The notes beneath the pieces are model-generated. The model made no database searches. It was not told where the DNA came from and worked only from the letters and a program-made list of their open reading frames with translations. From NCBI GenBank assembly GCA_964604315.1, contig CAZRYK010000001.1, positions 2,459-66,458 of the forward strand: a stretch of DNA of 64,000 bases, written 5' to 3'. The position numbers and the translations under genes are program-made. The number at the start of each line of letters is the position of its first letter. Position 1 is the stretch's first letter. Below, one piece after another: positions 3,662 through 64,000 of this stretch. The stretch comes from an uncultured Gammaproteobacteria bacterium (GTDB lineage Bacteria > Patescibacteriota > Patescibacteriia > JACPL01 > CAZRYK01).

Positions 3662-3925
3662 TTACTTATACACCTGATTATGCGTTCCCACATCTAAGAA
3701 GATCACAACAGTATAGTTGTCGTATTCTCGAAAAATGATACGGATATCGCCAGTAACAGAAAACGCCCGTCGCCCCCGTAAGCCCCCTGTTAATGGATGA
3801 TTCCGCAATGTTGGATGATTCGGATGAGAGATAAATTTTTCTATAGCCTTAAGAACCTTCGATTTTATGTTAGGTGTTAGTTTTCGAAAACGCTTTTCAA
3901 AATCTTTGTGATAATGAATTTCCAT
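3662..3925 (-). CDS. yafQ: Type II toxin, RelE/YafQ family mRNA interferase
   Basis: 87 aa; RelE/ParE-like sequence; overlaps the upstream antitoxin gene by 1 nt. Confidence 0.7.
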   Translation of the reverse strand: MEIHYHKDFEKRFRKLTPNIKSKVLKAIEKFISHPNHPTLRNHPLTGGLRGRRAFSVTGDIRIIFREYDNYTVVIFLDVGTHNQVYK

Positions 3926-4206
3926 TACAGCGACTTCAAGTACTCAATTGCTGCCTTTTTGGTTACGAATTTTTTTATGTTTTTCCCTTCAGAAGCTTCT
4001 GCATCGGCTTGCCGAATGCGATCCTCTTCTTCCAAAGTCAAACCGTTCTCTGTGACAATCTTAAAAGGAATACCTTTATACACAACAACTTGCCGCAAAT
4101 AAAGCTTCACAGCAGAACTCATATCGATCCCTAAATCTTCAAAAATTTTCTTAGAGGCATTTTTGGTTTTCTCATCGATACGAACTTGCAAAGTAGTCAT
4201 AAACAT
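3925..4206 (-). CDS. dinJ: RelB/DinJ-family antitoxin
   Basis: 93 aa; RHH-type N-terminus 'LQVRIDEKTKNASKKIFEDLGIDMSSAVKLYLRQVV'; paired with the toxin downstream. Confidence 0.7.
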   Translation of the reverse strand: MFMTTLQVRIDEKTKNASKKIFEDLGIDMSSAVKLYLRQVVVYKGIPFKIVTENGLTLEEEDRIRQADAEASEGKNIKKFVTKKAAIEYLKSL

Positions 4207-5421: not shown

Positions 5422-5579
5422 TGTGTGAGTGTGAGTAGTTCGCCCGCCTTTGCTAGAGCTTCGGCGAGGCAAGTATTTAGGGGTAAACTTTGCTCAAGAG
5501 GTTTTAAAAATGTTCTGCCTTGCGCTAAGTACAAAATACTAATTACGCATTACTCAAACTTTGCGTGAGCAAAGTTTAC
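5422..5579 (-). repeat. tRNA 3'-flank repeat element, copy C
   Basis: Reverse complement aligns along its length with the elements at 58987-59156 and 62553-62708. Begins CGTAAACTTTGCTCACGCAAAGTTTG directly after the tRNA-Cys 3' end and ends ACTCACACTCACACA. Confidence 0.7.
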
Positions 5580-5581
5580 GG

Positions 5582-5654
5582 AGGCCTAGATGGGATTTGC
5601 ACCCATGAATAGCGGTTTTGCAGACCGCCGTGTTAGCTACTTCACCACTAGGCC
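5582..5654 (-). tRNA. tRNA-Cys (anticodon GCA)
   Basis: Hand-folded. Acceptor GGCCTAG/CTAGGCC, anticodon stem GCGGT/ACCGC with loop CTGCAAA, T arm TGGGT-GCAAATC-CCATC. Confidence 0.6.
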
Positions 5655-18725: not shown

Positions 18726-18751
18726 AGTTGTCTACCCGTTGTAAGAGGTTA

Positions 18752-18912
18752 GAGCTCCTTTCAATAATCGCTTTCTTGCCATTTTGGATGATCGTGAGAG
18801 CGAAACGCGTAAAGAACGAGGAGGAATAGCGAAACTATTCTGACGAGTTCTGAATGCGTTGTAGCCTCATGAGCGCCAAAAGGGCTGAATCGGGATTATG
18901 GAAAGGAGCTCC
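18752..18912. repeat. IR-bounded conserved structured element, copy 1 (homologous to 58607-58772)
   Basis: Terminal IR AGAGCTCCTTTC / GAAAGGAGCTCC. Shared core GACGAGGAGGAATAG-hairpin-CTATT..GACGAGTTCTGAA.G.GTTG.AGGCC. Lies 26 nt upstream of the rpsF start. Confidence 0.5.
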
Positions 18913-20220: not shown

Positions 20221-20256
20221 CAGAAATACAAAGATAGATCACACTCCCAATCAACA

Positions 20257-20523
20257 TTGGAGGTGTGTATGATGTCCGAGTCCGCGATGATCCTCCGGAT
20301 TGTCGAGGGCGTCGCGCGGGACGTCGCGACCAACGGAACGCCAAAGGAGACTCTGCACGAGATGTGCAGGCGTCTTCTGAACGTCGTTGGACCGGCGGAT
20401 TTTCGCTCCGCACTTGATGCCCTTGCGGCACTTGAGCGGATCGAAGACGCCGATGTCGCGGCGGCCGTTCGCCACGCGCGTCTTGCGCTCGAGGAGCGCA
20501 CGCGCCGTTACACGCAACTCTGA
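20257..20523 (+). CDS. Hypothetical small protein in a roughly 65% GC islet; true start probably the ATG at 20269 after GGAGG
   Basis: RBS GGAGGTGTGT-ATG. GC content far above surroundings, and overlapping antisense ORFs are typical of GC-rich coding DNA. No recognised domain. Confidence 0.45.
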   Translation: MEVCMMSESAMILRIVEGVARDVATNGTPKETLHEMCRRLLNVVGPADFRSALDALAALERIEDADVAAAVRHARLALEERTRRYTQL

Positions 20524-20566
20524 CCGGAACCTCAAAGCGAGATGCTTCGGGGTTCCTTGAATTTTA
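20524..20566 (+). terminator. Hairpin (GGAACC...GGTTCC) downstream of the GC-rich gene
   Basis: GGAACCTCAAAGCGAGATGCTTCGGGGTTCC followed by TTGAATTTTA. Confidence 0.4.
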
Positions 20567-21757: not shown

Positions 21758-22216
21758 ATGCTCAAGGTCGTATTAGACACCAATGTTCTTATTAACGGCG
21801 TGCAGGACGAATTTAGCTTTGCGAGCCGAATTATTAATGCTATCATCGAGGGCAAGATGCTCGCTATTGTGAGCCCGCACATTGTCCGTGAAAATACGCG
21901 GCTGGCCGAACGCTTAATTACCGACATGGAATACATGGACAAATTGGAAGACTACCACGACGTCACAAGGCTTGTGATGCCGGTAAAACATTTGCGACTT
22001 TCATCGGACCGCGATGACGATAAATTTTTAGATGCGGCGATTGAAGGATCGGCAAACTTTATTGTGAGCGACGACTCCGACCTGTTGGATTTGGGCGAAG
22101 TTGATGGCGTGCGCGTGGTGGCACCAGAAGAATTTTGGAACATCTACTCCGAAGGCGACGAAACAGAGGAGCAATCGGCGTGGAGCGAATGGGCATCAAC
22201 CATAGGAATCGGTTAG
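21758..22216 (+). CDS. PIN-domain protein (orphan toxin-like nuclease)
   Basis: 'VVLDTNVLI', acidic residues D..E..D; no adjacent antitoxin ORF recognised. Confidence 0.6.
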   Translation: MLKVVLDTNVLINGVQDEFSFASRIINAIIEGKMLAIVSPHIVRENTRLAERLITDMEYMDKLEDYHDVTRLVMPVKHLRLSSDRDDDKFLDAAIEGSANFIVSDDSDLLDLGEVDGVRVVAPEEFWNIYSEGDETEEQSAWSEWASTIGIG

Positions 22217-43698: not shown

Positions 43699-43737
43699 AT
43701 GCTCGTATCGTATCAAAATTCCTCTCTTTGGCAAAGT

Positions 43738-43920
43738 TATAGACCTCACATTATGAAATAGGACTTAGAAATACAAAAACAAGATGAGATGCGACGGGTT
43801 GGAGCAAGAAAAAAGAGGAAGTGTAGCCATAGCTACATTGAGTGTTTTTTCTTGGGAAACCCGAGCAGATCGCTTGCTTTTTGTATTTATGGAGTACTCT
43901 TTCATAGGGTGAGGTCTATA
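43738..43920. mobile_element. MITE-like near-palindromic element with about 45-bp imperfect terminal inverted repeats, flanked by TA
   Basis: TATAGACCTCACATTATGAAATAGGACTTAGAAATACAAAAACAAG ... CTTGCTTTTTGTATTTATGGAGTACTCTTTCATAGGGTGAGGTCTATA. Central palindrome TGTAGCCATAGCTACA. A second copy starts at 63895. Confidence 0.5.
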
Positions 43921-43956
43921 CCTTGGCAAGAGCTAAGCTCTTGCCAAAATCAAAAT

Positions 43957-43977
43957 GTTCGAAACTCGGTTTCGAAC
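43957..43977. repeat. Conserved hairpin GTTCGAAA-CTCGG-TTTCGAAC (family of three)
   Basis: Same stem and loop at 63334-63362 and 63816-63836; preceded here by the perfect hairpin TTGGCAAGAGC-TAA-GCTCTTGCCAA at 43923-43947. Confidence 0.45.
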
Positions 43978-43990
43978 AACAAAAAAACAG

Positions 43991-44665
43991 TCCCGTGTGA
44001 GGGGGGGGTGGGTGGAGCGACCGTCGTCGCGGGTTTGGTCGGAATTGGCATATCCGAATCCATTGCGCGCCATGTGCCGGCGCTCCACCCGTTTCTCGAC
44101 GAGACCCTTCCTTTTGAGGGATCGATCGCGCCGTAGGATAGGCGCTTTCGACCCCAAGGGGGTCTCGTTCGTTCGCTGGGAGCCGTCGGCTCCCAAATCC
44201 CATAGTCGCCGCGGAGGGACAAAGTCATTCCGGTATGGAAACCGGAACTCCTCCGGGCAACGGTTTGCCGGTGAAAACCGGCAGGGGACTCTCGGGCGCC
44301 CAGCGAAACTGGCCGTATATTAAACCGACGGCAAAAATCTGTCAAGTAAAAAACATGTCCAACACCTTGGTGTTGGACAATAAGCAATTTCATCAAAAGG
44401 GAAGGTGGGTGGGGGTGTGTCCTGTCGTCGGCTCCGGCGCCACCGTAATAGCGCGCGACATTTGCGCACCCCCACCCTTCCTCTCGACCCTGGAACCAGT
44501 TTCCCGAGCGGTCTCGGGGAACTGTGGCGCATCCAAGGCCGTGGTTTCGCGAGCCTAAACCCCGGCAGGGGGCTGACACGAGGCCAGGCATCAACGAAAC
44601 CGACTCTATCCTATGCTCACCTTGCCTTCCCGTCAAGCCCTTACTTGAAGAATCCCAAGCCGCAG
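43991..44665. other. 675-bp GC-rich (about 62%) non-coding block with dense nested helices; unclassified structured RNA or foreign insert
   Basis: All ORFs on both strands are overlapping, Arg/Trp/Gly-rich and low-complexity. Perfect local helices include GGGTGGAGCG/CGCTCCACCC, GGGAGCC-GTC-GGCTCCC, CCGG-TGAAAA-CCGG, GTCCAACACC/GGTGTTGGAC and GGAAGGTGGGTGGGGGTG/CACCCCCACCCTTCC. Confidence 0.35.
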
Positions 44666-58606: not shown

Positions 58607-58772
58607 TTTAGAGCTCATCTCAAAAATAGCTTTCAAGACATTTGAGATGCCATTTGAGCCGAAACACTTGAAGGACGAGGAGGAATAGTGGTACTATTGC
58701 GACGAGTTCTGAAAGTGTTGCAGGCCAAATGGGGCTAAAATGGCCGGAAGATTATTTTTGAGATGAGCTCTA
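58607..58772. repeat. IR-bounded conserved structured element, copy 2 (homologous to 18752-18912)
   Basis: 20-bp perfect terminal IR TTTAGAGCTCATCTCAAAAATA / TATTTTTGAGATGAGCTCTA. Same conserved core, with hairpin GAATAG-TGGTA-CTATTG. Confidence 0.5.
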
Positions 58773-58814: not shown

Positions 58815-58901
58815 GGGCAGGTGGTGTAACTGGTAGCCACGTAAGGTTTAGGACCTTATGCCTTTACCGGCGTGAGGGTTCAAATCCCTCCCTGCCCACC
58901 A
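58815..58901 (+). tRNA. tRNA-Leu (anticodon TAG), class II with long variable arm; CCA encoded
   Basis: Acceptor GGGCAGG/CCTGCCC, anticodon stem TAAGG/CCTTA with loop TTTAGGA, long variable arm, T arm GAGGG-TTCAAAT-CCCTC. Confidence 0.8.
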
Positions 58902-58912
58902 AGAATAAATCC

Positions 58913-58986
58913 GCGCGCTTAGCTCAGTTGGTTAGAGCGTTTGCTCGACACGCAAAAGGTCGGAAGTTCGAATCTTCCAGCGCGCA
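58913..58986 (+). tRNA. tRNA-Val (anticodon GAC), with unusual C at position 33
   Basis: Acceptor GCGCGCT/AGCGCGC, D arm GCTC..GAGC, anticodon stem TTTGC/GCAAA with loop TCGACAC, T arm GGAAG-TTCGAAT-CTTCC. Confidence 0.65.
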
Positions 58987-59156
58987 CGTAAATTTTGCTG
59001 ACGCAAAGTTTGGGTAATGAGTAATTAGTACTTTGTACTTAGCGCAAGGTAGGATATTCTCAAAATATCTTGAGCAAAGTTTACCCCTAAATACCCGCCC
59101 GCCACGCAAGCCGAGCATGCGAGGCGTTGCGGGCAGGCCAATTACTCACACTCACA
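58987..59156 (+). repeat. tRNA 3'-flank repeat element, copy V (includes GC-rich palindromic module 59094-59137)
   Basis: Starts CGTAAATTTTGCTGACGCAAAGTTTG right after the tRNA-Val discriminator; ends ACTCACACTCACACA, overlapping the last codons of vapC. Confidence 0.7.
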
Positions 59157-59538
59157 CAGTATAAATCTCAAGATCAGGGATCCCTTGAAAATCCCCCGTA
59201 TTTAATGTTGCCAGTTCTGCCTTATTAATGATCGCTGTTGCGGCAATACCCGCATCGACAAATTCTATGGGCCGCAAAAGATCACGCGCAATCTTCCCGG
59301 CGAATTCTGCGGTTTCAAATGTATAAGGAAGAATACGCAGTGGCGCAATCGTTGCAAGCAGATAATCTTCTTTCACCGAATCGCGTGTGCTTCTGCCTTC
59401 ATATAATTCTTGCACCGTGAGTAACGATATTGCTAAATTGGCTTTCGGCACGCGTTTTGCCATTTCCATAAGAAGCGTTGTCGCCGACCCACGCTGACGC
59501 AAATGATCAATAATGATATTCGTATCAAGAATTACCAT
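59152..59538 (-). CDS. vapC: PIN-domain toxin VapC
   Basis: 'MVILDTNIIIDHL'; 128 aa. Confidence 0.8.
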   Translation of the reverse strand: MVILDTNIIIDHLRQRGSATTLLMEMAKRVPKANLAISLLTVQELYEGRSTRDSVKEDYLLATIAPLRILPYTFETAEFAGKIARDLLRPIEFVDAGIAATAIINKAELATLNTGDFQGIPDLEIYTV

Positions 59539-59828
59539 ACTTTCTTTCGTTCTTTTGATGCGGCGAGCTCTTGAGCTTTTCGTTGTTTGTGCAACGATGC
59601 TTCGCTATCTCGCCCCCATGAGCCTCTGGTTTTTTCTAAGATTTTAAGATATGTATTCTCCTCGTCTACATCCCCCACCACTTGCTGAATGAGGGAAATA
59701 TAAATACCCTTGCCTTGAAGCACAATATTAAGTGGAGTGGCAGAATGGATGCCAAGCGTATCCCGCAACGATTTCGGGATCACTATTTGGCCTTTGGTGT
59801 TAGGAGTGGTAATTATTCCTATCTTCAT
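59532..59828 (-). CDS. vapB: AbrB/SpoVT-type antitoxin VapB
   Basis: 'MKIGIITTPNTKGQIVIPKSLRDTLGI'; overlaps vapC. Confidence 0.7.
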   Translation of the reverse strand: MKIGIITTPNTKGQIVIPKSLRDTLGIHSATPLNIVLQGKGIYISLIQQVVGDVDEENTYLKILEKTRGSWGRDSEASLHKQRKAQELAASKERKKVW

Positions 59829-59913
59829 ACTAGTTCTATTTTATTACAAGTCTGACATTCTGTCAATGTCCTAAGCTTAGCTTAGGACATTCGGTTTGAT
59901 TTGAATTTCGTCA

Positions 59914-59972
59914 AAAGAAAAAGCCCGGGAAGAGTTGGTGTACAACTCTACAACCCGGGCTTGGTGCTTTTT
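59914..59972. terminator. Nested-palindrome rho-independent terminator, usable in both directions
   Basis: AAAAAGCCCGGG-[AGAGTTG GTGTAC AACTCT]-CCCGGGCTT..CTTTTT. Confidence 0.55.
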
Positions 59973-59996
59973 GACCAGAAGCATAACTGGGCGGGA

Positions 59997-60650
59997 CTAC
60001 GCGAGCGAGGTGATCGCCATACCGTTCGCGTCGAAGCAGTAGTCAGCCTCGCTCGCGGGGTCATAGTCGCTGACCTGCGAGCAAATGATCAGCCGTGCGC
60101 CACCCGCGGGCATGTCGTCCATGGGCTCGCCGAAGAGGTATTCGTACGCGGGCTCGTGGGTCGTTCCGTGGCCCACGACGATCAGGACCGTGCGGTGATC
60201 GACGCAGTTGAGAAGTTCGTTGATCGCCGAGCCTGCCCGCTGTCCCACGACTCCGACGCTCTCGGTGCCGACGCTCGACAGAAGGCGCAAATCCGCGTTG
60301 CGCCACGCCTCCATGAACCCATGCTCGTAGGCCGGCAGATCGGGCACGGCGCCACGGAACTTCCCGAGGTTCTGCATCTCGCACCCCAAACTCGCATTGG
60401 GTGCCAGAAGGCGGACAGCGATGTTCATGTTGCGCAGGACCTGGGTGTAGCGCGCGGCCCCTTCCATGGCACGCGGCTCGTCGCTCGACACAACGGCAAC
60501 CGTGAGAGCGTCGCCTGCGTTCTTGAGAGCTTGGATCTGTTCGCCCACCCAGCGGGCCGAACGCTCGAGCTGTGCGAAGCCGCGTGGAGTTGTCCGGTTG
60601 TTCTTGTGGTCACCGTGACGAGCCAGCACCAACATCTGATTGAAGTTCAT
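59997..60650 (-). CDS. Histidine phosphatase (phosphoglycerate-mutase-like) family protein, encoded in a roughly 62% GC segment
   Basis: 'LVLARHGDH'; start placed at MNFNQ with RBS GGAGAAGAAA (ATG 60648-60650). Confidence 0.7.
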   Translation of the reverse strand: MNFNQMLVLARHGDHKNNRTTPRGFAQLERSARWVGEQIQALKNAGDALTVAVVSSDEPRAMEGAARYTQVLRNMNIAVRLLAPNASLGCEMQNLGKFRGAVPDLPAYEHGFMEAWRNADLRLLSSVGTESVGVVGQRAGSAINELLNCVDHRTVLIVVGHGTTHEPAYEYLFGEPMDDMPAGGARLIICSQVSDYDPASEADYCFDANGMAITSLA

Positions 60651-60898
60651 TTTCTTCTCCGTCAGGCCACGCAACGCGGGATTGCGTTGTTTCTTGGCCT
60701 GGAATAAGCGCGTCTTTTGAGACGATCTTATGCCAGACCAAGAAGTTGACAATTTGTCAAAGTTCTAGCGTAACGAAAGATAATATCACATGGCACATTA
60801 AGTGTCACAAATGCCGGCATTTTTATAAAATACTTGATTATTTGGCTTATGTATGATATACTTATGTTGTCGTAAATGCCGACATAAATGACAAAATC

Positions 60899-61642
60899 AT
60901 GAAAAATGAACAAATAATCAATCTTGTAAAGGAGCTTGGCTTATCTGATCTTGAGGCAAGAGTCTATTTTTCTACCCTTTCTTTGGGTCCAACAACGGTA
61001 CTCAAAATCGCCCGATCTTCGGAAATCAAGCGATCCACGGTCTATTCTGTTCTTGAAGACTTAATCAAGAAGGGGTTTATGCGCGTGGAGCCCAAGGGGT
61101 TTAAGCGACTGTTCGCGGCCGAAAACCCGCGCGCTCTTGAGCGAGCGTTGGAAGACCGGCGCAAGCGGTTCCGCACGGTTCTGCCGGAACTTGAGGCGCT
61201 CTACAACCAACGCGAGGGCAGTTCCGTGATTAAGTATTATGAGGGTATCAAAGCCGTAAAAGGCGTATACGAATCGCTTTTACTGGAACTACGGCCACAC
61301 ATGGATTACATGGTGATTGCTAACATTCAACAATGGCTCGCGGCAGACGAGGACTTTTTTCTAAAATGGCGCGTGAAACGATCAAAGTTAAAACTGAACA
61401 GCCGATTGATTTTTGAAGATAACGAACAAGGCCAACAATTCAAAAAAAACGCCGCAAACTATTTTGAAGCGGTTAAACTCCTGCCCACCGAGCGACATGT
61501 GGACACAAGTCTCGTGATCACGCCCACAAAAGCCATTATTCACCAGTATACCGAGCCTGTGAGCGTGTTGGTGAACGAAAGCAAGGCAAGTTTACTGCTC
61601 TACCGCGAAATGTTCGAAATGATTTGGGACGCGCTTCCATAA
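60899..61642 (+). CDS. TrmB-family (archaeal-type sugar-responsive) transcriptional regulator
   Basis: wHTH 'LSDLEARVYFSTLSLGPTTVLKIARSSEIKRSTVYSVLEDLIKKG'; 247 aa. Confidence 0.7.
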   Translation: MKNEQIINLVKELGLSDLEARVYFSTLSLGPTTVLKIARSSEIKRSTVYSVLEDLIKKGFMRVEPKGFKRLFAAENPRALERALEDRRKRFRTVLPELEALYNQREGSSVIKYYEGIKAVKGVYESLLLELRPHMDYMVIANIQQWLAADEDFFLKWRVKRSKLKLNSRLIFEDNEQGQQFKKNAANYFEAVKLLPTERHVDTSLVITPTKAIIHQYTEPVSVLVNESKASLLLYREMFEMIWDALP

Positions 61643-61805
61643 GAAGACGCTTTTTAGAAGAGTCTTCCATTTTCCAAGTATTTTTGTTAGAGTACGTTCG
61701 CATACTTCTTAAATGCTCTTAATTCTCCAATGCGTTATAAGGGCAATATCAAAATGCAATTAAAATCATCTTGTACATAGATAAACTCTATGGTACGATG
61801 TTATC

Positions 61806-62480
61806 ATGCGTGCTTATAGCAAGATACAACAAAAAGCTATTCTCTTAAGAAGAGGAGGAAAGACCTACTCCGAAATCCAGCGCATTCTTAAAATAAAAAT
61901 CCCAAAAAGTACTCTCTCTACATGGTGCCACCAATATTCTCTTTCGCAAGAACACCAACAAAGGATCGATAAGATCGTTAATTTGAACCTTAAAAAAGCA
62001 CGAGAAATAGGATTACTTGTCCATGTAAAAAAAAGGAAATTATACTTCGCGGAAATAGAGTATAGAAATCGTGGACTACTAGCTTCACTAAGAAATAAGA
62101 AAGTTGCAAAACTTGCGCTTGCAGTTCTCTATGTCGCGGAAGGTAGTAAAAGGAATATTGGCTCTTTAACTTTTGGAAATTCCGATCCTGGCATCATAAA
62201 ACTCTTTTTTCAACTCCTGCGATACTGTTACTCCATCGATGAAACAAAATTTCGATGTACCCTCCAATGTCGGGCTGACCAAGATACTGAAAAATTAGAA
62301 GAATTTTGGTCGAGAGTCACGCGAATCCCTCGAAAACAATTTTATCATGCAAGAGTTGATCCGCGAACGGTTGGGAAACCTTCACGAAAAATCGATTACA
62401 AGGGGGTTTGTAGAGTTAATTATTTCTCTGCTGAAATTTTCCACGAACTTTCTATAATAGGAAAAATGATAACATCATAA
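61806..62480 (+). CDS. Free-standing LAGLIDADG-like homing endonuclease with N-terminal HTH, in an AT-rich islet
   Basis: 'LAKLALAVLYVAEGSKRNIGSLTFGNSD' resembles the single-motif LAGLIDADG core (compare I-CreI 'LAGFVDGDGS...LSLTFQV'). About 36% GC versus 47% surroundings. Stop is immediately followed by tRNA-Ala. Confidence 0.5.
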   Translation: MRAYSKIQQKAILLRRGGKTYSEIQRILKIKIPKSTLSTWCHQYSLSQEHQQRIDKIVNLNLKKAREIGLLVHVKKRKLYFAEIEYRNRGLLASLRNKKVAKLALAVLYVAEGSKRNIGSLTFGNSDPGIIKLFFQLLRYCYSIDETKFRCTLQCRADQDTEKLEEFWSRVTRIPRKQFYHARVDPRTVGKPSRKIDYKGVCRVNYFSAEIFHELSIIGKMITS

Positions 62481-62552
62481 GGGCCCTTAGCTCATTTGGT
62501 AGAGCGTCTGGCTGGCAGTCAGAAGGTGACCGGTTCGATCCCGGTAGGGTCC
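62481..62552 (+). tRNA. tRNA-Ala (anticodon GGC)
   Basis: Acceptor GGGCCCT/AGGGTCC with G3:U70, anticodon stem TCTGG/TCAGA with loop CTGGCAG, T arm ACCGG-TTCGATC-CCGGT. Confidence 0.85.
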
Positions 62553-62708
62553 ACAACACGTACCGTATGGTACGTGGTCCACGTAAACTTTGCTCACGCA
62601 AAGTTTGTGTAATGAGTCATTCGTAGTTGATACCTAGCGCAAGGTAGAATTTTCTTAAAATCTCTTGAGCAAAGTTTACCCCTAAATACAAACTACTCAC
62701 ACTCACAC
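62553..62708 (+). repeat. tRNA 3'-flank repeat element, copy A
   Basis: After a 28-nt hairpin (ACGTACC-GTAT-GGTACGT) that re-duplicates GGTCCA of the tRNA end, the sequence CGTAAACTTTGCTCACGCAAAGTTTG...ACTCACACTCACACA aligns with copies V and C. Confidence 0.7.
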
Positions 62709-62710
62709 AA

Positions 62711-63110: not shown

Positions 63111-63183
63111 CGGGGTATGGCGCAGTTGGTAGCGCGCACGCTTCGGGTGCGTGAGGCCCCCGGTTCGAGTCCGGGTACCCCGA
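63111..63183 (+). tRNA. tRNA-Pro (anticodon CGG)
   Basis: Acceptor CGGGGTA/TACCCCG, D stem GCGC/GCGC, anticodon stem CACGC/GCGTG with loop TTCGGGT, T arm CCCGG-TTCGAGT-CCGGG. Confidence 0.85.
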
Positions 63184-63242
63184 CTCTGTTACGGATTAAA
63201 ATAACGGCGCGCCCCGACGTACGTCGGGGAGGTCGAGGGTAT

Positions 63243-63284
63243 CCCGCCCGCCACGCAAGCCGAGCTTGCGAGGCGTTGCGGGCA
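63243..63284. repeat. Isolated copy of the GC-rich palindromic module of the tRNA-flank repeat
   Basis: CCCGCCCGCCACGCAAGCCGAGCTTGCGAGGCGTTGCGGGCA matches 59094-59137 apart from one base; lies 60 nt after tRNA-Pro. Confidence 0.5.
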
Positions 63285-63435
63285 CGCGAATCCGGCATCC
63301 CCGACCAAGAGAGAAAAAAATGAGGCCAAGGGTGTATGTTCGAAACTCGGTTTTGGACATACGATCTGTGGACAGTTTTTTTGCTTAATCGCAAAAAATC
63401 TATTATACTTGAGCTCTCATCACTAACACTTTTTT

Positions 63436-63783
63436 ATGAACAGAGAAACAGAACTCCCCATGGAGGTTCGTATAGCACAGGAATTGATCCCTGCTATTGA
63501 AAAAGCGAGCACAGCCACCGGGTACGACGGAACGGTCAGAAGCATTGATAGCCTCTACGGGTATTTAGCTAATGGCGGAAAAATAGACGATAAGACAAAG
63601 GTAGACCTTTTGCGCGCTCTTAGCGAATGGACTCGGATACAAAAATTAAACTTTACTACGGGCCTTAATATTATAAAAATGCTGGAAAAAAAATCCCCCG
63701 ATGATTCAGGACTTACACAAACAGTTCATTCTGAAAATGATGGCGTAAGCATAGAAGAATCTAAAGGACTGACGGAACAATAA
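63436..63783 (+). CDS. Hypothetical protein
   Basis: 115 aa; no motif recognised. Confidence 0.4.
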   Translation: MNRETELPMEVRIAQELIPAIEKASTATGYDGTVRSIDSLYGYLANGGKIDDKTKVDLLRALSEWTRIQKLNFTTGLNIIKMLEKKSPDDSGLTQTVHSENDGVSIEESKGLTEQ

Positions 63784-63894: not shown

Positions 63895-64000
63895 TATAGA
63901 CCTCACACTATGAAAGTGAACTTAGAAATACAAAAACAAGATGAGATGCGACGGGTTGGAGCAAGAAAAAATACGAAGTGTAGCCATAGCTACATTGAGT
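63895..64000. mobile_element. Second copy of the MITE-like element (truncated by the window end)
   Basis: TATAGACCTCACACTATGAAAGTGAACTTAGAAATACAAAAACAAGATGAGATGCGACGGGTTGGAGCAAGAAAAAA...GTGTAGCCATAGCTACATTGAGT aligns with 43738-43845; again preceded by TA. Confidence 0.45.

What the first reader, a model, noticed from the sequence alone, without database searches (positions are those of the whole stretch)
58987..62708. Compositionally mosaic variable region between tRNA-Val and tRNA-Ala, bracketed by direct copies of the tRNA-flank repeat
Two co-oriented copies of the 160-bp repeat bracket about 3.5 kb. The bracketed region contains a VapBC toxin-antitoxin pair, a 62% GC histidine-phosphatase gene with its own strong terminator, a TrmB-type regulator, and a 36% GC LAGLIDADG-like endonuclease gene fused to the 5' edge of tRNA-Ala. 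Three different compositions within 3.5 kb, together with TA and homing-endonuclease genes, look like an accretion hotspot or island. No integrase is present. If the repeats act as att-like sites, this would be an integrase-independent or decayed integrative island.
Basis: inference. Interest (0 to 1): 0.55.

Follow-up and report, generated by a model that had tools for sequence, protein, structure and literature searches.

The report
tRNA-trailer repeats flanking a patchwork locus
The two repeats are real, but they are copies of a short structured element that follows three different tRNA genes in this ultra-small (CPR) bacterium, not the ends of a mobile island; between them lie one clearly foreign gene, a toxin-antitoxin pair, and an ancient protein-gene/tRNA-Ala pair conserved across the phylum.

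Summary
Two co-oriented repeat copies (58987-59158, 62582-62709; 88% identical core) bracket 3.6 kb. That stretch holds VapBC, a 63.6% GC histidine-phosphatase gene, a TrmB regulator, and a 37% GC ORF that abuts tRNA-Ala(GGC).

The island reading does not hold.
- A third repeat copy follows tRNA-Cys, 53 kb away. All three copies start 1-3 nt after a tRNA discriminator base and contain no tRNA sequence. They are about 12% diverged.
- No integrase or transposase was found in the ORFs scanned across the 64-kb window.
- The "LAGLIDADG" ORF plus tRNA-Ala(GGC) is a conserved module in 9 of 9 Patescibacteria lineages examined. It has a conserved leaderless promoter, and in six relatives the stop codon is tRNA nucleotides 8-10. 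Its low GC is a family trait, not a sign of recent arrival.
- LAGLIDADG membership was not confirmed by Pfam, hhalign or Foldseek.

What remains of "accretion": the histidine phosphatase is a strong compositional outlier (GC3 81%, z +6.5) with almost no relatives, so it is probably a recent foreign gene. VapBC is a typical accessory cassette. In the one informative relative, 14 kb of synteny ends exactly at the tRNA-Val 3' end.

The locus is an ordinary tRNA-adjacent plasticity zone. The two by-products worth following up are the tRNA-trailer repeat and the ORF-tRNA-Ala module.

The parts
58815..58901 (+). tRNA-Leu(TAG). It is the first gene of the Leu-Val tRNA pair, and its synteny with the pilin-like gene, the LTD gene and PolA is conserved in relative L013.
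   Evidence: ARAGORN; Rfam; L013 tRNAs; tblastx
58913..58987 (+). tRNA-Val(GAC). No CCA is encoded. The 14-kb synteny block shared with relative L013 ends at its 3' end.
58987..59158 (+). tRNA-flank repeat, copy 'after Val'. The core is 58987-59099 and is closed by the 13-14-bp inverted termini GTAAAYTTTGCTS...GAGCAAAGTTTAC. A GC-rich hairpin insert lies at 59094-59142. The tail ACTCACACTCACACA lies at 59144-59158 and contains the vapC stop codon.
   Evidence: the repeat finder; alignment; folds; nhmmer E 9.8e-37; reproduced in an independent assembly, L010
59152..59538 (-). vapC, a PIN-domain toxin of 128 aa. GC is 44.4%, native-like.
   Evidence: Pfam PIN E 1.5e-10; NCBIfam VapC models E 2e-13, below their cut-offs; composition
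59532..59828 (-). vapB, an AbrB/MazE-fold antitoxin of 98 aa. It overlaps vapC by 7 nt.
   Evidence: Pfam MazE_antitoxin E 1.1e-5; TIGR01439 AbrB domain 34.6 bits, above its 28.3 cut-off
59838..59891 (-). Promoter-like site for vapBC (TTGACA-17-TAAAAT, 11 of 12 matches). It overlaps a 12-bp-stem palindrome at 59865-59891, which is a candidate operator or terminator.
   Evidence: scan (consensus match only)
59910..59975 (-). Intrinsic terminator of the histidine-phosphatase gene: a long GC-rich hairpin followed by UUUUUCUUUU.
   Evidence: fold (-32.3 kcal/mol, z -4.2)
59997..60650 (-). Histidine phosphatase (branch 1), 217 aa, with an RHG motif. GC is 63.6% and GC3 is 80.7%. It is probably a horizontally acquired single gene. 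The likely start is the ATG at 60650, preceded by a GGAGAA ribosome-binding site.
   Evidence: Pfam His_Phos_1 31.3 bits, above the 21.7 cut-off; composition; only itself in the word-indexed search; 15 hits, best 35% identity, among 1.84e9 representatives
60899..61642 (+). TrmB-family winged-helix regulator, 247 aa, native GC (47.0%). TrmB genes also lie within 4 kb of the ORF/tRNA-Ala module in L017 and L018.
   Evidence: Pfam TrmB E 8.5e-16
61771..61799 (+). Conserved promoter of the ORF/tRNA-Ala module: TTGTAC-N17-TACGAT here, consensus TTGCAC-N17-TAC(G/A)AT. It ends 6 nt before the ATG, which implies a leaderless mRNA.
   Evidence: alignment of 8 lineages; upstream sequences
61806..62480 (+). 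224-aa protein of a Patescibacteria-wide family that is in neither Pfam nor NCBIfam. It has an N-terminal HTH, a long helix, and an alpha/beta C-domain with an invariant 'EG' at the end of a helix. It is always immediately upstream of tRNA-Ala(GGC).
   Evidence: more than 320 homologues at 50-61% identity; alignment; AF2 pLDDT 91; HTH_SB in 19 of 37 and HTH_23 in 6 of 37; context
62481..62554 (+). tRNA-Ala(GGC), the conserved partner of the 224-aa ORF.
62555..62582 (+). 28-bp insert between tRNA-Ala and its flank repeat. It consists of a 21-nt stretch carrying the palindrome ACGTACC-gtat-GGTACGT plus a second copy of GGTCCAC, the last 7 nt at the tRNA-Ala 3' end. Without it, the repeat would abut the tRNA as in the other two copies.
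   Evidence: read directly from the sequence; alignment
62582..62709 (+). tRNA-flank repeat, copy 'after Ala'. It has the core and the tail but no GC hairpin.
   Evidence: nhmmer E 6.5e-36
5422..5580 (-). tRNA-flank repeat, third copy, directly after tRNA-Cys (5580-5654, minus strand). It carries a different GC hairpin and the same tail. A separate intrinsic terminator follows about 40 nt further downstream.
   Evidence: nhmmer E 1.7e-36
63243..63291 (+). Second copy (94%) of the GC-rich hairpin that is inserted in the Val repeat copy. Here it stands alone, 59 nt after tRNA-Pro(CGG) (63111-63184).
   Evidence: the repeat finder; blastn

Best explanation
This is a chromosomal tRNA-gene neighbourhood of a Patescibacteria (CPR) genome related to Kerfeld-/Buchananbacteria. 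It is not an integrative island. It has three layers of different age.

1. Old core: the 224-aa HTH protein gene plus tRNA-Ala(GGC). This is a phylum-wide unit with its own conserved leaderless promoter. The native-composition TrmB regulator probably belongs with it.

2. A lineage-specific structured repeat of 130-170 bp. It has 13-14-bp inverted termini, an optional GC hairpin and a CACACTCACACA tail. It sits as a 3' trailer directly after three unrelated tRNAs (Cys, Val, Ala). It most likely spread by insertion or gene conversion at tRNA 3' ends and is co-transcribed with the tRNAs. In the Cys copy it lies between the tRNA and the original terminator. Two of its copies bracket the 3.6 kb only because tRNA-Val and tRNA-Ala are on the same strand.

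3. Recent accretion in the gap downstream of tRNA-Val: a VapBC toxin-antitoxin cassette, and a single foreign, high-GC histidine-phosphatase gene that has its own RBS and terminator.

Shown: the anatomy, the copy number, the composition, the conservation of the ORF-tRNA module, the synteny break at tRNA-Val, and the absence of a recombinase from the ORFs scanned in the window. Inferred: the order of events, that the repeat is transcribed, and how it spread.
For: - Three repeat copies are present, each starting 1-3 nt after a tRNA discriminator base and in the same orientation as the tRNA.
- The copies are about 12% diverged, with differences unique to each copy and no recombinant mosaic.
- The exact 20-mer of the repeat is absent from 185,579 species genomes and from the JGI metagenome contigs, apart from one chance coding hit. 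The repeat is also absent after tRNA-Val in relative L013, which has a plain terminator there.
- No integrase or transposase appeared in the Pfam scans of the ORFs tested.
- ORF+tRNA-Ala(GGC) adjacency holds in 9 of 9 lineages, while the other neighbours vary.
- The ORF stop codon is tRNA U8-A9-G10 in 6 relatives.
- The promoter is conserved in 8 of 8 lineages aligned.
- ORF GC tracks the host genome GC but lies 4-11 points lower in the six relatives measured and in this window.
- ORF identities to its homologues (50-61%) match those of PolA (50-61%), as expected for vertical descent.
- HisPhos has GC z +5.8 and GC3 z +6.5, and the high-GC boundaries coincide with the coding sequence. It has only 15 distant relatives among 1.84e9 representatives.
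- Synteny with L013 runs from window 44.9 kb to 58,988 and then stops.
- The junctions are confirmed in three independent assemblies.
Against: - Only one relative (61% PolA identity) was informative for synteny, and the right-hand boundary could not be tested. The window ends 1.3 kb after the second repeat, and L013 shows nothing matching it.
- The closer relative (84% PolA identity, L012) has a contig that stops before the tRNAs.
- With three copies there is no covariation, so an RNA-level role for the repeat is unproven: 0 compensatory pairs and one G-U-compatible change.
- No target-site duplication or parent transposase was seen, so the way the repeat spread is unknown.
- Recombination between the two copies (longest identical run 27 nt) is physically possible and cannot be excluded as an occasional deletion route.
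- Not every short ORF of the window was scanned for recombinase domains.
Confidence: 0.72

Rival explanations
1. Decayed or integrase-independent integrative island. The 3.6 kb entered as a unit by recombination at the repeat, so the two copies would be attL and attR.
For: - Direct, co-oriented repeats bracket the segment next to a tRNA.
- The segment contains a toxin-antitoxin pair and two compositional outliers.
- Synteny with L013 breaks exactly at the start of the left repeat.
Against: - A third copy lies after tRNA-Cys, with no island-like content beside it.
- The repeats do not overlap the tRNA genes and are 12% diverged, whereas att duplicates start out identical.
- No integrase was found in the ORFs scanned across 64 kb.
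- The segment includes the phylum-conserved ORF+tRNA-Ala(GGC) unit and a native-GC TrmB gene.
- Compositions within the segment differ from each other, so a single donor is unlikely.
- No empty-site variant was seen in three other assemblies of the population.
Confidence: 0.06
2. The repeat is a functional tRNA 3'-trailer RNA rather than a selfish element. It would be a structured 3' external transcribed spacer, released by RNase Z-type processing, that acts as a small RNA or sponge or as a processing or stability signal. It would be kept similar by selection or gene conversion.
For: - All copies start right after the discriminator base, with no terminator in between.
- A 14-bp closing stem plus internal hairpins is predicted, with fold z-scores of -2.1 to -3.7.
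- The one substitution in the stem is C-G to U-G, which is tolerated in RNA but not in DNA.
- The 5' arm can pair alternatively with either of two GCAAAGTTT copies.
- 3'ETS-derived regulatory RNAs are an established class, for example 3'ETS-leuZ (mentioned in PMC6191717).
Against: - There are no compensatory changes, and three sequences give no statistical power.
- There is no Rfam match.
- The element is absent from all other genomes searched, including after tRNA-Val in L013.
- Optional hairpin inserts at one position and a 28-bp insertion look like junk-DNA dynamics.
- The genome carries at least two other palindromic intergenic repeat families, which favours a generic MITE/REP-like nature.
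Confidence: 0.2
3. The 224-aa ORF is an active free-standing homing endonuclease. Its target would be the tRNA-Ala(GGC) 5' region, and its constant position would reflect repeated homing rather than vertical inheritance.
For: - The insertion point relative to the tRNA is the same in 9 of 9 lineages although the other neighbours differ.
- An invariant acidic residue plus Gly lies at the C-terminal end of a helix ('LYxxEGSK'), followed by a beta-hairpin, as in LAGLIDADG enzymes.
- An N-terminal HTH could extend DNA recognition.
- 3 of 37 members give weak LAGLIDADG_2 hits (E 0.012).
- Several weak BFVD structural hits are to homing endonucleases or intein-bearing proteins.
- GC is always below the host genome.
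- There is precedent: the phage T4/T6 SegB endonuclease gene sits in a tRNA cluster (PMC13096335).
Against: - Neither Pfam nor NCBIfam assigns the window protein to a family.
- hhalign against I-CreI gives probability 0.2.
- Foldseek against PDB, with the full model and with the C-domain model, returns no LAGLIDADG enzyme; the best TM-score is 0.27-0.41.
- Identities fall in a narrow 50-61% band like PolA, with no near-identical copies across distant hosts.
- GC co-varies with host GC, which points to long residence.
- The promoter is conserved across lineages.
- No displaced tRNA fragment lies upstream of the ORF.
Confidence: 0.2

Closest known systems
tRNA-associated genomic islands (integrase-mediated, with attL/attR made from the tRNA 3' end)
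   Same: Accessory genes (a toxin-antitoxin pair and a gene of foreign composition) sit directly downstream of a tRNA gene. Direct repeats flank the segment. Synteny with a relative breaks at the tRNA 3' end.
   Different: There is no integrase. The repeats contain no tRNA sequence, are 12% diverged, and belong to a family with a third copy behind an unrelated tRNA. Nearly half of the bracketed DNA is conserved core.
MITE / REP-like intergenic repeats of bacteria (for example Correia elements, RUP, BOX, REP/BIME)
   Same: The element is short (130-170 bp), non-coding and multi-copy. It has terminal inverted repeats, a strong hairpin potential and a modular make-up with optional hairpin inserts. 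The same genome holds other palindromic repeat families.
   Different: Every copy seen abuts the 3' end of a tRNA gene in a single orientation. No target-site duplication is visible. The conserved sequence extends about 30 nt beyond the right inverted terminus. No parent transposase is known.
tRNA 3' external transcribed spacer RNAs (for example E. coli 3'ETS-leuZ)
   Same: It is a structured sequence directly 3' of a tRNA, inside the tRNA transcription unit.
   Different: Here the same trailer is repeated behind three different tRNAs. There is no evidence of expression or of a target.
Type II VapBC toxin-antitoxin modules
   Same: An AbrB-fold antitoxin gene lies upstream of, and overlaps, a PIN-domain toxin gene. 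A strong promoter-like site with a palindrome lies upstream.
   Different: Nothing unusual. The vapC stop codon lies inside the tail of the flank repeat.
LAGLIDADG homing endonucleases and free-standing endonuclease genes in tRNA clusters (phage T4/T6 SegB)
   Same: The gene occupies a fixed position beside a tRNA gene. A helix ends in an invariant acidic residue plus Gly, followed by a beta-hairpin. An extra DNA-binding domain is present.
   Different: There is no significant sequence or fold match to LAGLIDADG enzymes. About 45 residues are inserted between the third and fourth strands. The divergence pattern looks vertical. In six relatives checked the stop codon is built from tRNA nucleotides 8-10.

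Membership tests
Integrative genomic island at a tRNA gene | Integrase or recombinase gene at one end, or a recognisable remnant of one | tested here: not met
   Pfam found none among the five bracketed genes or among the other window ORFs scanned
Integrative genomic island at a tRNA gene | Flanking direct repeats that duplicate the 3' part of the target tRNA (att core) | tested here: not met
   The repeats begin after the discriminator base, hold no tRNA sequence, are 88% identical, and have a third copy after tRNA-Cys
Integrative genomic island at a tRNA gene | Presence or absence of the whole segment between conserved flanks in related genomes | tested here: inconclusive
   The left flank is conserved in L013 up to tRNA-Val, and the content then differs. 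The right flank was not recoverable. The closer relative L012 has a truncated contig.
Integrative genomic island at a tRNA gene | Composition of the segment deviates from the genome as a block | tested here: not met
   Only HisPhos (z +5.8) and the 224-aa ORF (z -3.5) deviate, and in opposite directions. TrmB and VapBC are native-like. The low GC of the ORF is a family trait.
LAGLIDADG homing endonuclease | Significant match to a LAGLIDADG profile (Pfam LAGLIDADG_1/2/3) or to a known member | tested here: not met
   The window protein has no hit. 3 of 37 homologues hit LAGLIDADG_2 at E 0.012, far from significance. hhalign against I-CreI gives probability 0.2. A profile search against PDB sequences found nothing.
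LAGLIDADG homing endonuclease | alpha-beta-beta-alpha-beta-beta-alpha core fold superposable on solved enzymes | tested here: inconclusive
LAGLIDADG homing endonuclease | Conserved catalytic acidic residue at the C-terminal end of the motif helix | tested here: met
   E112-G113 are invariant in 37 sequences and lie at the end of helix 98-112
LAGLIDADG homing endonuclease | Site-specific DNA cleavage, and patchy distribution driven by homing | not testable with these tools
   This needs biochemistry and a census of ORF-less tRNA-Ala(GGC) alleles.
MITE (miniature inverted-repeat transposable element) | Short, non-coding, multi-copy, with terminal inverted repeats | tested here: met
   Three copies of 128-172 bp with the termini GTAAACTTTGCTC and GAGCAAAGTTTAC
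MITE (miniature inverted-repeat transposable element) | Target-site duplication flanking the inverted termini, and a related autonomous element | tested here: not met
   No duplication is visible at the three copies. The conserved sequence continues past the right terminus. No transposase was found in the window ORFs scanned.
Integron attC recombination site | RYYYAAC and GTTRRRY core sites, plus an IntI integrase | tested here: not met
   The ends read CGTAAAC and GTTTACC, which do not fit the core consensus (direct reading). No integrase was found.
tRNA 3'ETS-derived small RNA | Lies within the tRNA transcript, 3' of the mature end and before the terminator | tested here: met
   All copies start 1-3 nt after the discriminator base. 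In the Cys copy the terminator lies downstream of the repeat.
tRNA 3'ETS-derived small RNA | Stable processed RNA with a function | not testable with these tools
   No transcript data are available, and there is no covariation with only three copies
VapBC type II toxin-antitoxin | PIN-domain toxin preceded by a small, overlapping DNA-binding antitoxin gene | tested here: met
   PIN scores 42.2 bits against a 23.6 cut-off. MazE_antitoxin scores 25.7 against 24.7. The AbrB domain scores 34.6 against 28.3. The genes overlap by 7 nt.
Histidine phosphatase superfamily, branch 1 | Pfam His_Phos_1 above the gathering score, and the catalytic RHG motif | tested here: met
   31.3 bits against a 21.7 cut-off. 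'LARHGDH' and a later 'GHG' can be read in the translation.

The most novel reading that the evidence does not exclude
The 224-aa ORF and tRNA-Ala(GGC) may form a previously undescribed, Patescibacteria-wide fused expression unit. One conserved leaderless promoter would drive an mRNA whose 3' end is the tRNA. In six of the eight relatives examined the stop codon is tRNA nucleotides U8-A9-G10. RNase P cleavage at tRNA nucleotide 1 would then remove the stop codon, which would couple tRNA maturation to expression of an HTH protein with an unclassified, possibly LAGLIDADG-derived, nuclease-like domain. That protein could be a domesticated site-specific nuclease or regulator docked on this one tRNA gene. 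Separately, the flank repeat could be a mobile element that targets the first nucleotides after a tRNA's discriminator base.
Probability: 0.3. Interest if true: 0.75.

Novelty: new member of a known kind. Interest (0 to 1): 0.38.

Why it matters
The flagged feature itself matters little. It shows how two same-strand tRNA genes that each carry the same trailer repeat can mimic the attL/attR signature of an island. It also shows that tRNA 3' ends are plasticity points even in very small CPR genomes.

Two by-products could matter more.

1. A protein family with hundreds of members is always docked on the 5' edge of tRNA-Ala(GGC). It has a conserved leaderless promoter and a stop codon built from tRNA nucleotides. 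I found no description of this in the literature searched. It offers a concrete case for studying mRNA-tRNA co-transcripts and their processing in CPR bacteria.

2. A structured repeat found only behind tRNA genes may be either a tRNA-end-targeting mobile element or a family of 3'-trailer RNAs.

Tried and rejected
- Repeat 20-mer scans. I scanned GAGCAAAGTTTACCCCTAAA against genome contigs and metagenome contigs. Both returned only the same chance hit inside a Bacillales coding gene.
- Rfam. Gathering thresholds and permissive E-values both found nothing for the repeat or the region apart from the tRNAs.
- attC-like reading of the repeat. Rejected, because the terminal sequences do not fit RYYYAAC / GTTRRRY.
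- Displaced tRNA-Ala 5' fragment upstream of the ORF, as an integrating element would leave. An 8-mer (ATAAGGGC) is shared in the window, but 97 of 300 shuffles do as well, and the relatives show nothing. Rejected.
- Origin of the histidine phosphatase. The word-indexed search found only itself. Full HMMER found 15 distant, unnamed metagenome proteins. No donor lineage could be named.
- Phage similarity of the 3.7 kb. Only the tRNA-Ala matches.
- The closest relative (PolA 84% identical, L012). Its contig ends 294 bp upstream of PolA, so it says nothing about the tRNA locus.
- Look-up of the 115-aa ORF at 63436, to extend past the window end. It is not on record.
- Covariation test of the repeat structure. 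Three sequences gave 0 compensatory pairs, which is uninformative.

Full report
**Where the window comes from**

PolA (52479-55232) has its best named relatives at about 55% identity in Candidatus Kerfeldbacteria and Buchananbacteria. The window otherwise carries ordinary core genes: RuvAB, RecA, FtsK, EF-P, SSB, S6, SHMT, TyrRS/TrpRS-class synthetase, UvrB and PolA. It is therefore a chromosomal stretch of a Patescibacteria (CPR) genome with 47.1% GC.

**1. The observation**

ARAGORN and Rfam find these tRNAs:
- tRNA-Leu(TAG) at 58815-58901
- tRNA-Val(GAC) at 58913-58987
- tRNA-Ala(GGC) at 62481-62554
- tRNA-Pro(CGG) at 63111-63184
- tRNA-Gly and tRNA-Cys near 2.6 kb and 5.6 kb

The repeat finder reports a 110-nt direct repeat, 58985-59094 vs 62580-62689, at 88% identity. 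It also reports a shared 19-nt tail, 59140-59158 vs 62691-62709. The Val copy holds an extra GC-rich hairpin at 59094-59142.

Pfam confirms PIN, AbrB/MazE, His_Phos_1 and TrmB.

I measured composition against 39 Pfam-supported genes of the window (GC 47.2 +/- 2.9%, range 38.7-51.4%).

| Gene | GC | z | GC3 |
|---|---|---|---|
| Histidine phosphatase | 63.6% | +5.8 | 80.7% (z +6.5) |
| ORF 61806-62480 | 37.2% | -3.5 | 29.8% |
| TrmB | 47.0% | about 0 | |
| VapC, VapB | 44.4%, 43.4% | | |

The high-GC stretch coincides with the coding sequence. The gene is followed by a strong hairpin-plus-U-run terminator.

Three contigs assembled independently from other sequencing runs reproduce 58932-62380 (one mismatch), 60278-62516 and 59880-61306. 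The mosaic is therefore not an assembly chimera.

**2. What the repeat is**

Short sub-motifs of the repeat match three times in the window, where 0.02-0.04 matches are expected by chance. The third copy lies at 5422-5580 on the minus strand, directly after tRNA-Cys. An nhmmer profile finds exactly these three copies (E about 1e-36 each) and none in the 17 related loci fetched.

All three copies begin 1-3 nt after the discriminator base of a tRNA, on the tRNA's strand. The tRNAs themselves are unrelated.

The Ala copy looks displaced by 28 bp. That insert is a small palindrome plus a second copy of GGTCCAC, the tRNA-Ala 3' end. Removing it restores the same junction as in the other two copies.

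The anatomy is modular:
- a 97-nt body closed by GTAAACTTTGCTC / GAGCAAAGTTTAC. The 5' arm can alternatively pair with a nearby second GCAAAGTTT;
- then CCCCTAAATAC;
- then an optional GC-rich hairpin. The sequence differs between the Cys and Val copies, and the Ala copy has none. The Val version recurs on its own after tRNA-Pro at 63243-63291;
- then a CACACTCACACA tail.

Predicted folds are moderately better than shuffles (z -2.1 to -3.7). With three sequences there is no compensatory change, only one C-G to U-G change.

In the Cys copy a normal intrinsic terminator lies downstream of the repeat. In relative L013, tRNA-Val(GAC) is followed directly by a simple terminator with no repeat. The element therefore looks like an insertion between the tRNA and its terminator.

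The invariant 20-mer occurs nowhere else in 185,579 species genomes or in the JGI metagenome contigs, apart from one chance hit in a coding gene. There is no Rfam family.

The genome holds at least two more palindromic intergenic repeat families: 18750-18885 ~ 58609-58772, and 43726-43932 ~ 63895-64000.

My reading: this is a lineage-specific, MITE/REP-like structured element that is linked to tRNA 3' ends and is necessarily co-transcribed with them. Whether it is selfish or serves as a 3'-trailer RNA cannot be decided here.

**3. The ORF called 'LAGLIDADG-like'**

It has no Pfam, NCBIfam or PHROGs family. It does have more than 320 homologues of the same length at 50-61% identity in Portnoy-, Lipton-, Kaiser- and Uhrbacteria and in many unnamed CPR contigs.

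In all eight independent homologue loci fetched, the gene is followed at once by tRNA-Ala(GGC) on the same strand, while the remaining neighbours vary. With the window that makes 9 of 9.

In six relatives the stop codon is the tRNA's U8-A9-G10, and the last two residues (G-P, G-H, G-I or G-L) are encoded by the acceptor stem. About half of the 36 aligned homologues end in such a G-X tail. In the window the TAA stop abuts tRNA nucleotide 1.

Upstream, all eight loci aligned share TTGCAC-N17-TAC(G/A)AT, ending 6-9 nt before the ATG. This is a conserved promoter for a leaderless mRNA.

The ORF's GC is 4-11 points below its own genome in all six relatives measured and in this window, and it follows the host GC (31% in a 34% genome, 46% in a 57% genome). 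The 37% GC here is therefore a family trait and not a sign of recent arrival. The identity band equals that of PolA, as expected for vertical descent.

AlphaFold (pLDDT 91) gives an N-terminal HTH, a 40-residue helix and an alpha/beta C-domain. A helix in that domain ends in the invariant E112-G113. HTH_SB or HTH_23 are detected in 25 of 37 members, but LAGLIDADG_2 only in 3 of 37, at E 0.012. hhalign against I-CreI gives probability 0.2. Foldseek against PDB, with the full model and with a C-domain-only model, returns no LAGLIDADG enzyme (best TM 0.27-0.41). BFVD gives only weak hits, a few of them to homing endonucleases or intein-bearing proteins.

Membership in the LAGLIDADG family is thus not shown, although a distant derivation remains possible. 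No remnant of a displaced tRNA fragment lies upstream.

**4. Is the bracketed segment an island?**

Evidence against:
- The third repeat copy exists.
- The repeats contain no tRNA sequence, are 12% diverged, and their differences are star-like.
- No integrase, recombinase or transposase was found in the ORFs scanned across the 64 kb.
- The core nature of ORF+tRNA-Ala, and probably of TrmB. TrmB genes also lie near the module in L017 and L018.
- There are opposite compositional deviations within the segment.
- Phage databases match only the tRNA.

Evidence for some plasticity:
- Relative L013 (PolA 61% identical) is colinear with the window from UvrB (44.9 kb) through the ATP-grasp genes, PolA, the LTD protein, the pilin-like protein and tRNA-Leu to tRNA-Val. 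It has an IS3 element inserted between the two tRNAs.
- Similarity stops exactly at 58,988. None of the bracketed genes occurs within the 4.6 kb that follow.
- The histidine phosphatase is nearly an orphan: only itself in the word-indexed search, and 15 hits with a best identity of 35% among 1.84 billion representatives. It is compositionally foreign.
- VapBC is a standard mobile cassette with a strong promoter-like site and a palindrome.

**5. Most likely history and mechanism**

The locus is an old tRNA neighbourhood. Leu(TAG), Val, Pro(CGG), Ala(GGC), Arg(CCT) and the CCA-adding enzyme recur near the module in several lineages. It acquired, in this lineage, a trailer repeat behind several tRNAs. 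More recently it acquired VapBC and a single foreign phosphatase gene in the gap after tRNA-Val. The 'bracketing' is a by-product.

Shown: the anatomy, the copy number, the composition, the conservation and the synteny break. Inferred: the order of events, transcription of the repeat, and how it spreads.

**6. Verdict**

The island/att interpretation is not supported, and the accretion-hotspot idea is partly supported. The feature as flagged is ordinary: a new member of known kinds. Two side results deserve follow-up: the tRNA-linked repeat, and above all the phylum-wide ORF/tRNA-Ala(GGC) fused unit.

Noticed in passing
window 61771-62554; loci L002-L007, L015-L018: A 224-aa HTH protein family (more than 320 homologues, no Pfam or NCBIfam model) is always immediately upstream of tRNA-Ala(GGC), in 9 of 9 lineages. 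It has a conserved leaderless promoter, TTGCAC-N17-TACGAT. In six relatives the stop codon is formed by tRNA nucleotides 8-10. I found no description of this in the literature searched.
   Followed up: yes
window 62555-62582: A 28-bp insert lies between tRNA-Ala and its flank repeat. It is the palindrome ACGTACC-gtat-GGTACGT plus a 7-nt duplication (GGTCCAC) of the tRNA 3' end. It looks like a small insertion or a footprint with a target duplication.
   Followed up: partly
window 59094-59142 and 63243-63291; a different hairpin at about 5440-5472 (minus strand): A small GC-rich hairpin module, 94% identical between two places. One copy is nested inside the Val flank repeat and the other stands free after tRNA-Pro. 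The Cys repeat carries a different hairpin at the same position. The single polymorphism between independent assemblies (L010 vs the window) falls in this hairpin.
   Followed up: partly
window 58609-58772 and 18750-18885: A second repeat family of about 165 bp with long inverted termini (TAGAGCTC...GAGCTCTA), 75% identical between copies. One copy lies just upstream of tRNA-Leu and the other between rpsF and a methyltransferase gene. No Rfam match.
   Followed up: partly
window 43726-43932 and 63895-64000 (runs off the window end): A third palindromic intergenic repeat family of about 207 bp. The two copies are 94% identical over 106 nt. No Rfam match above noise.
   Followed up: partly
window 20251-20535 (-) and 43950-44636 (-): Two more high-GC stretches (62.5% and 58.4% GC). 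Their ORFs have no Pfam match and there is no Rfam hit. They may be further foreign genes or GC-rich non-coding elements.
   Followed up: partly
L013 5035-6115: In the relative with 61% PolA identity, an IS3-family element (HTH_Tnp_1 + rve) is inserted between tRNA-Leu(TAG) and tRNA-Val(GAC). This is independent evidence that this tRNA pair is an insertion-prone spot.
   Followed up: no
L002, L005, L007, L017, L018: The CCA-adding enzyme gene and tRNA-Arg(CCT) recur within a few kb of the ORF/tRNA-Ala(GGC) module in five of the eight distinct relatives examined. In L002 and L006, tRNA-Ser(CGA), DUF4446, IF-2 and RbfA follow it.
   Followed up: no
window 59144-59158: The stop codon and the last codons of vapC lie inside the conserved tail of the flank repeat. 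The next ORF after the Ala copy (62711) starts right after the same tail.
   Followed up: no
window 3925-4206 (-) and 21758-22216 (+): Further toxin-antitoxin parts occur elsewhere in the window: a RelB antitoxin and a PIN_3 protein. TA genes are therefore not peculiar to the flagged segment.
   Followed up: no
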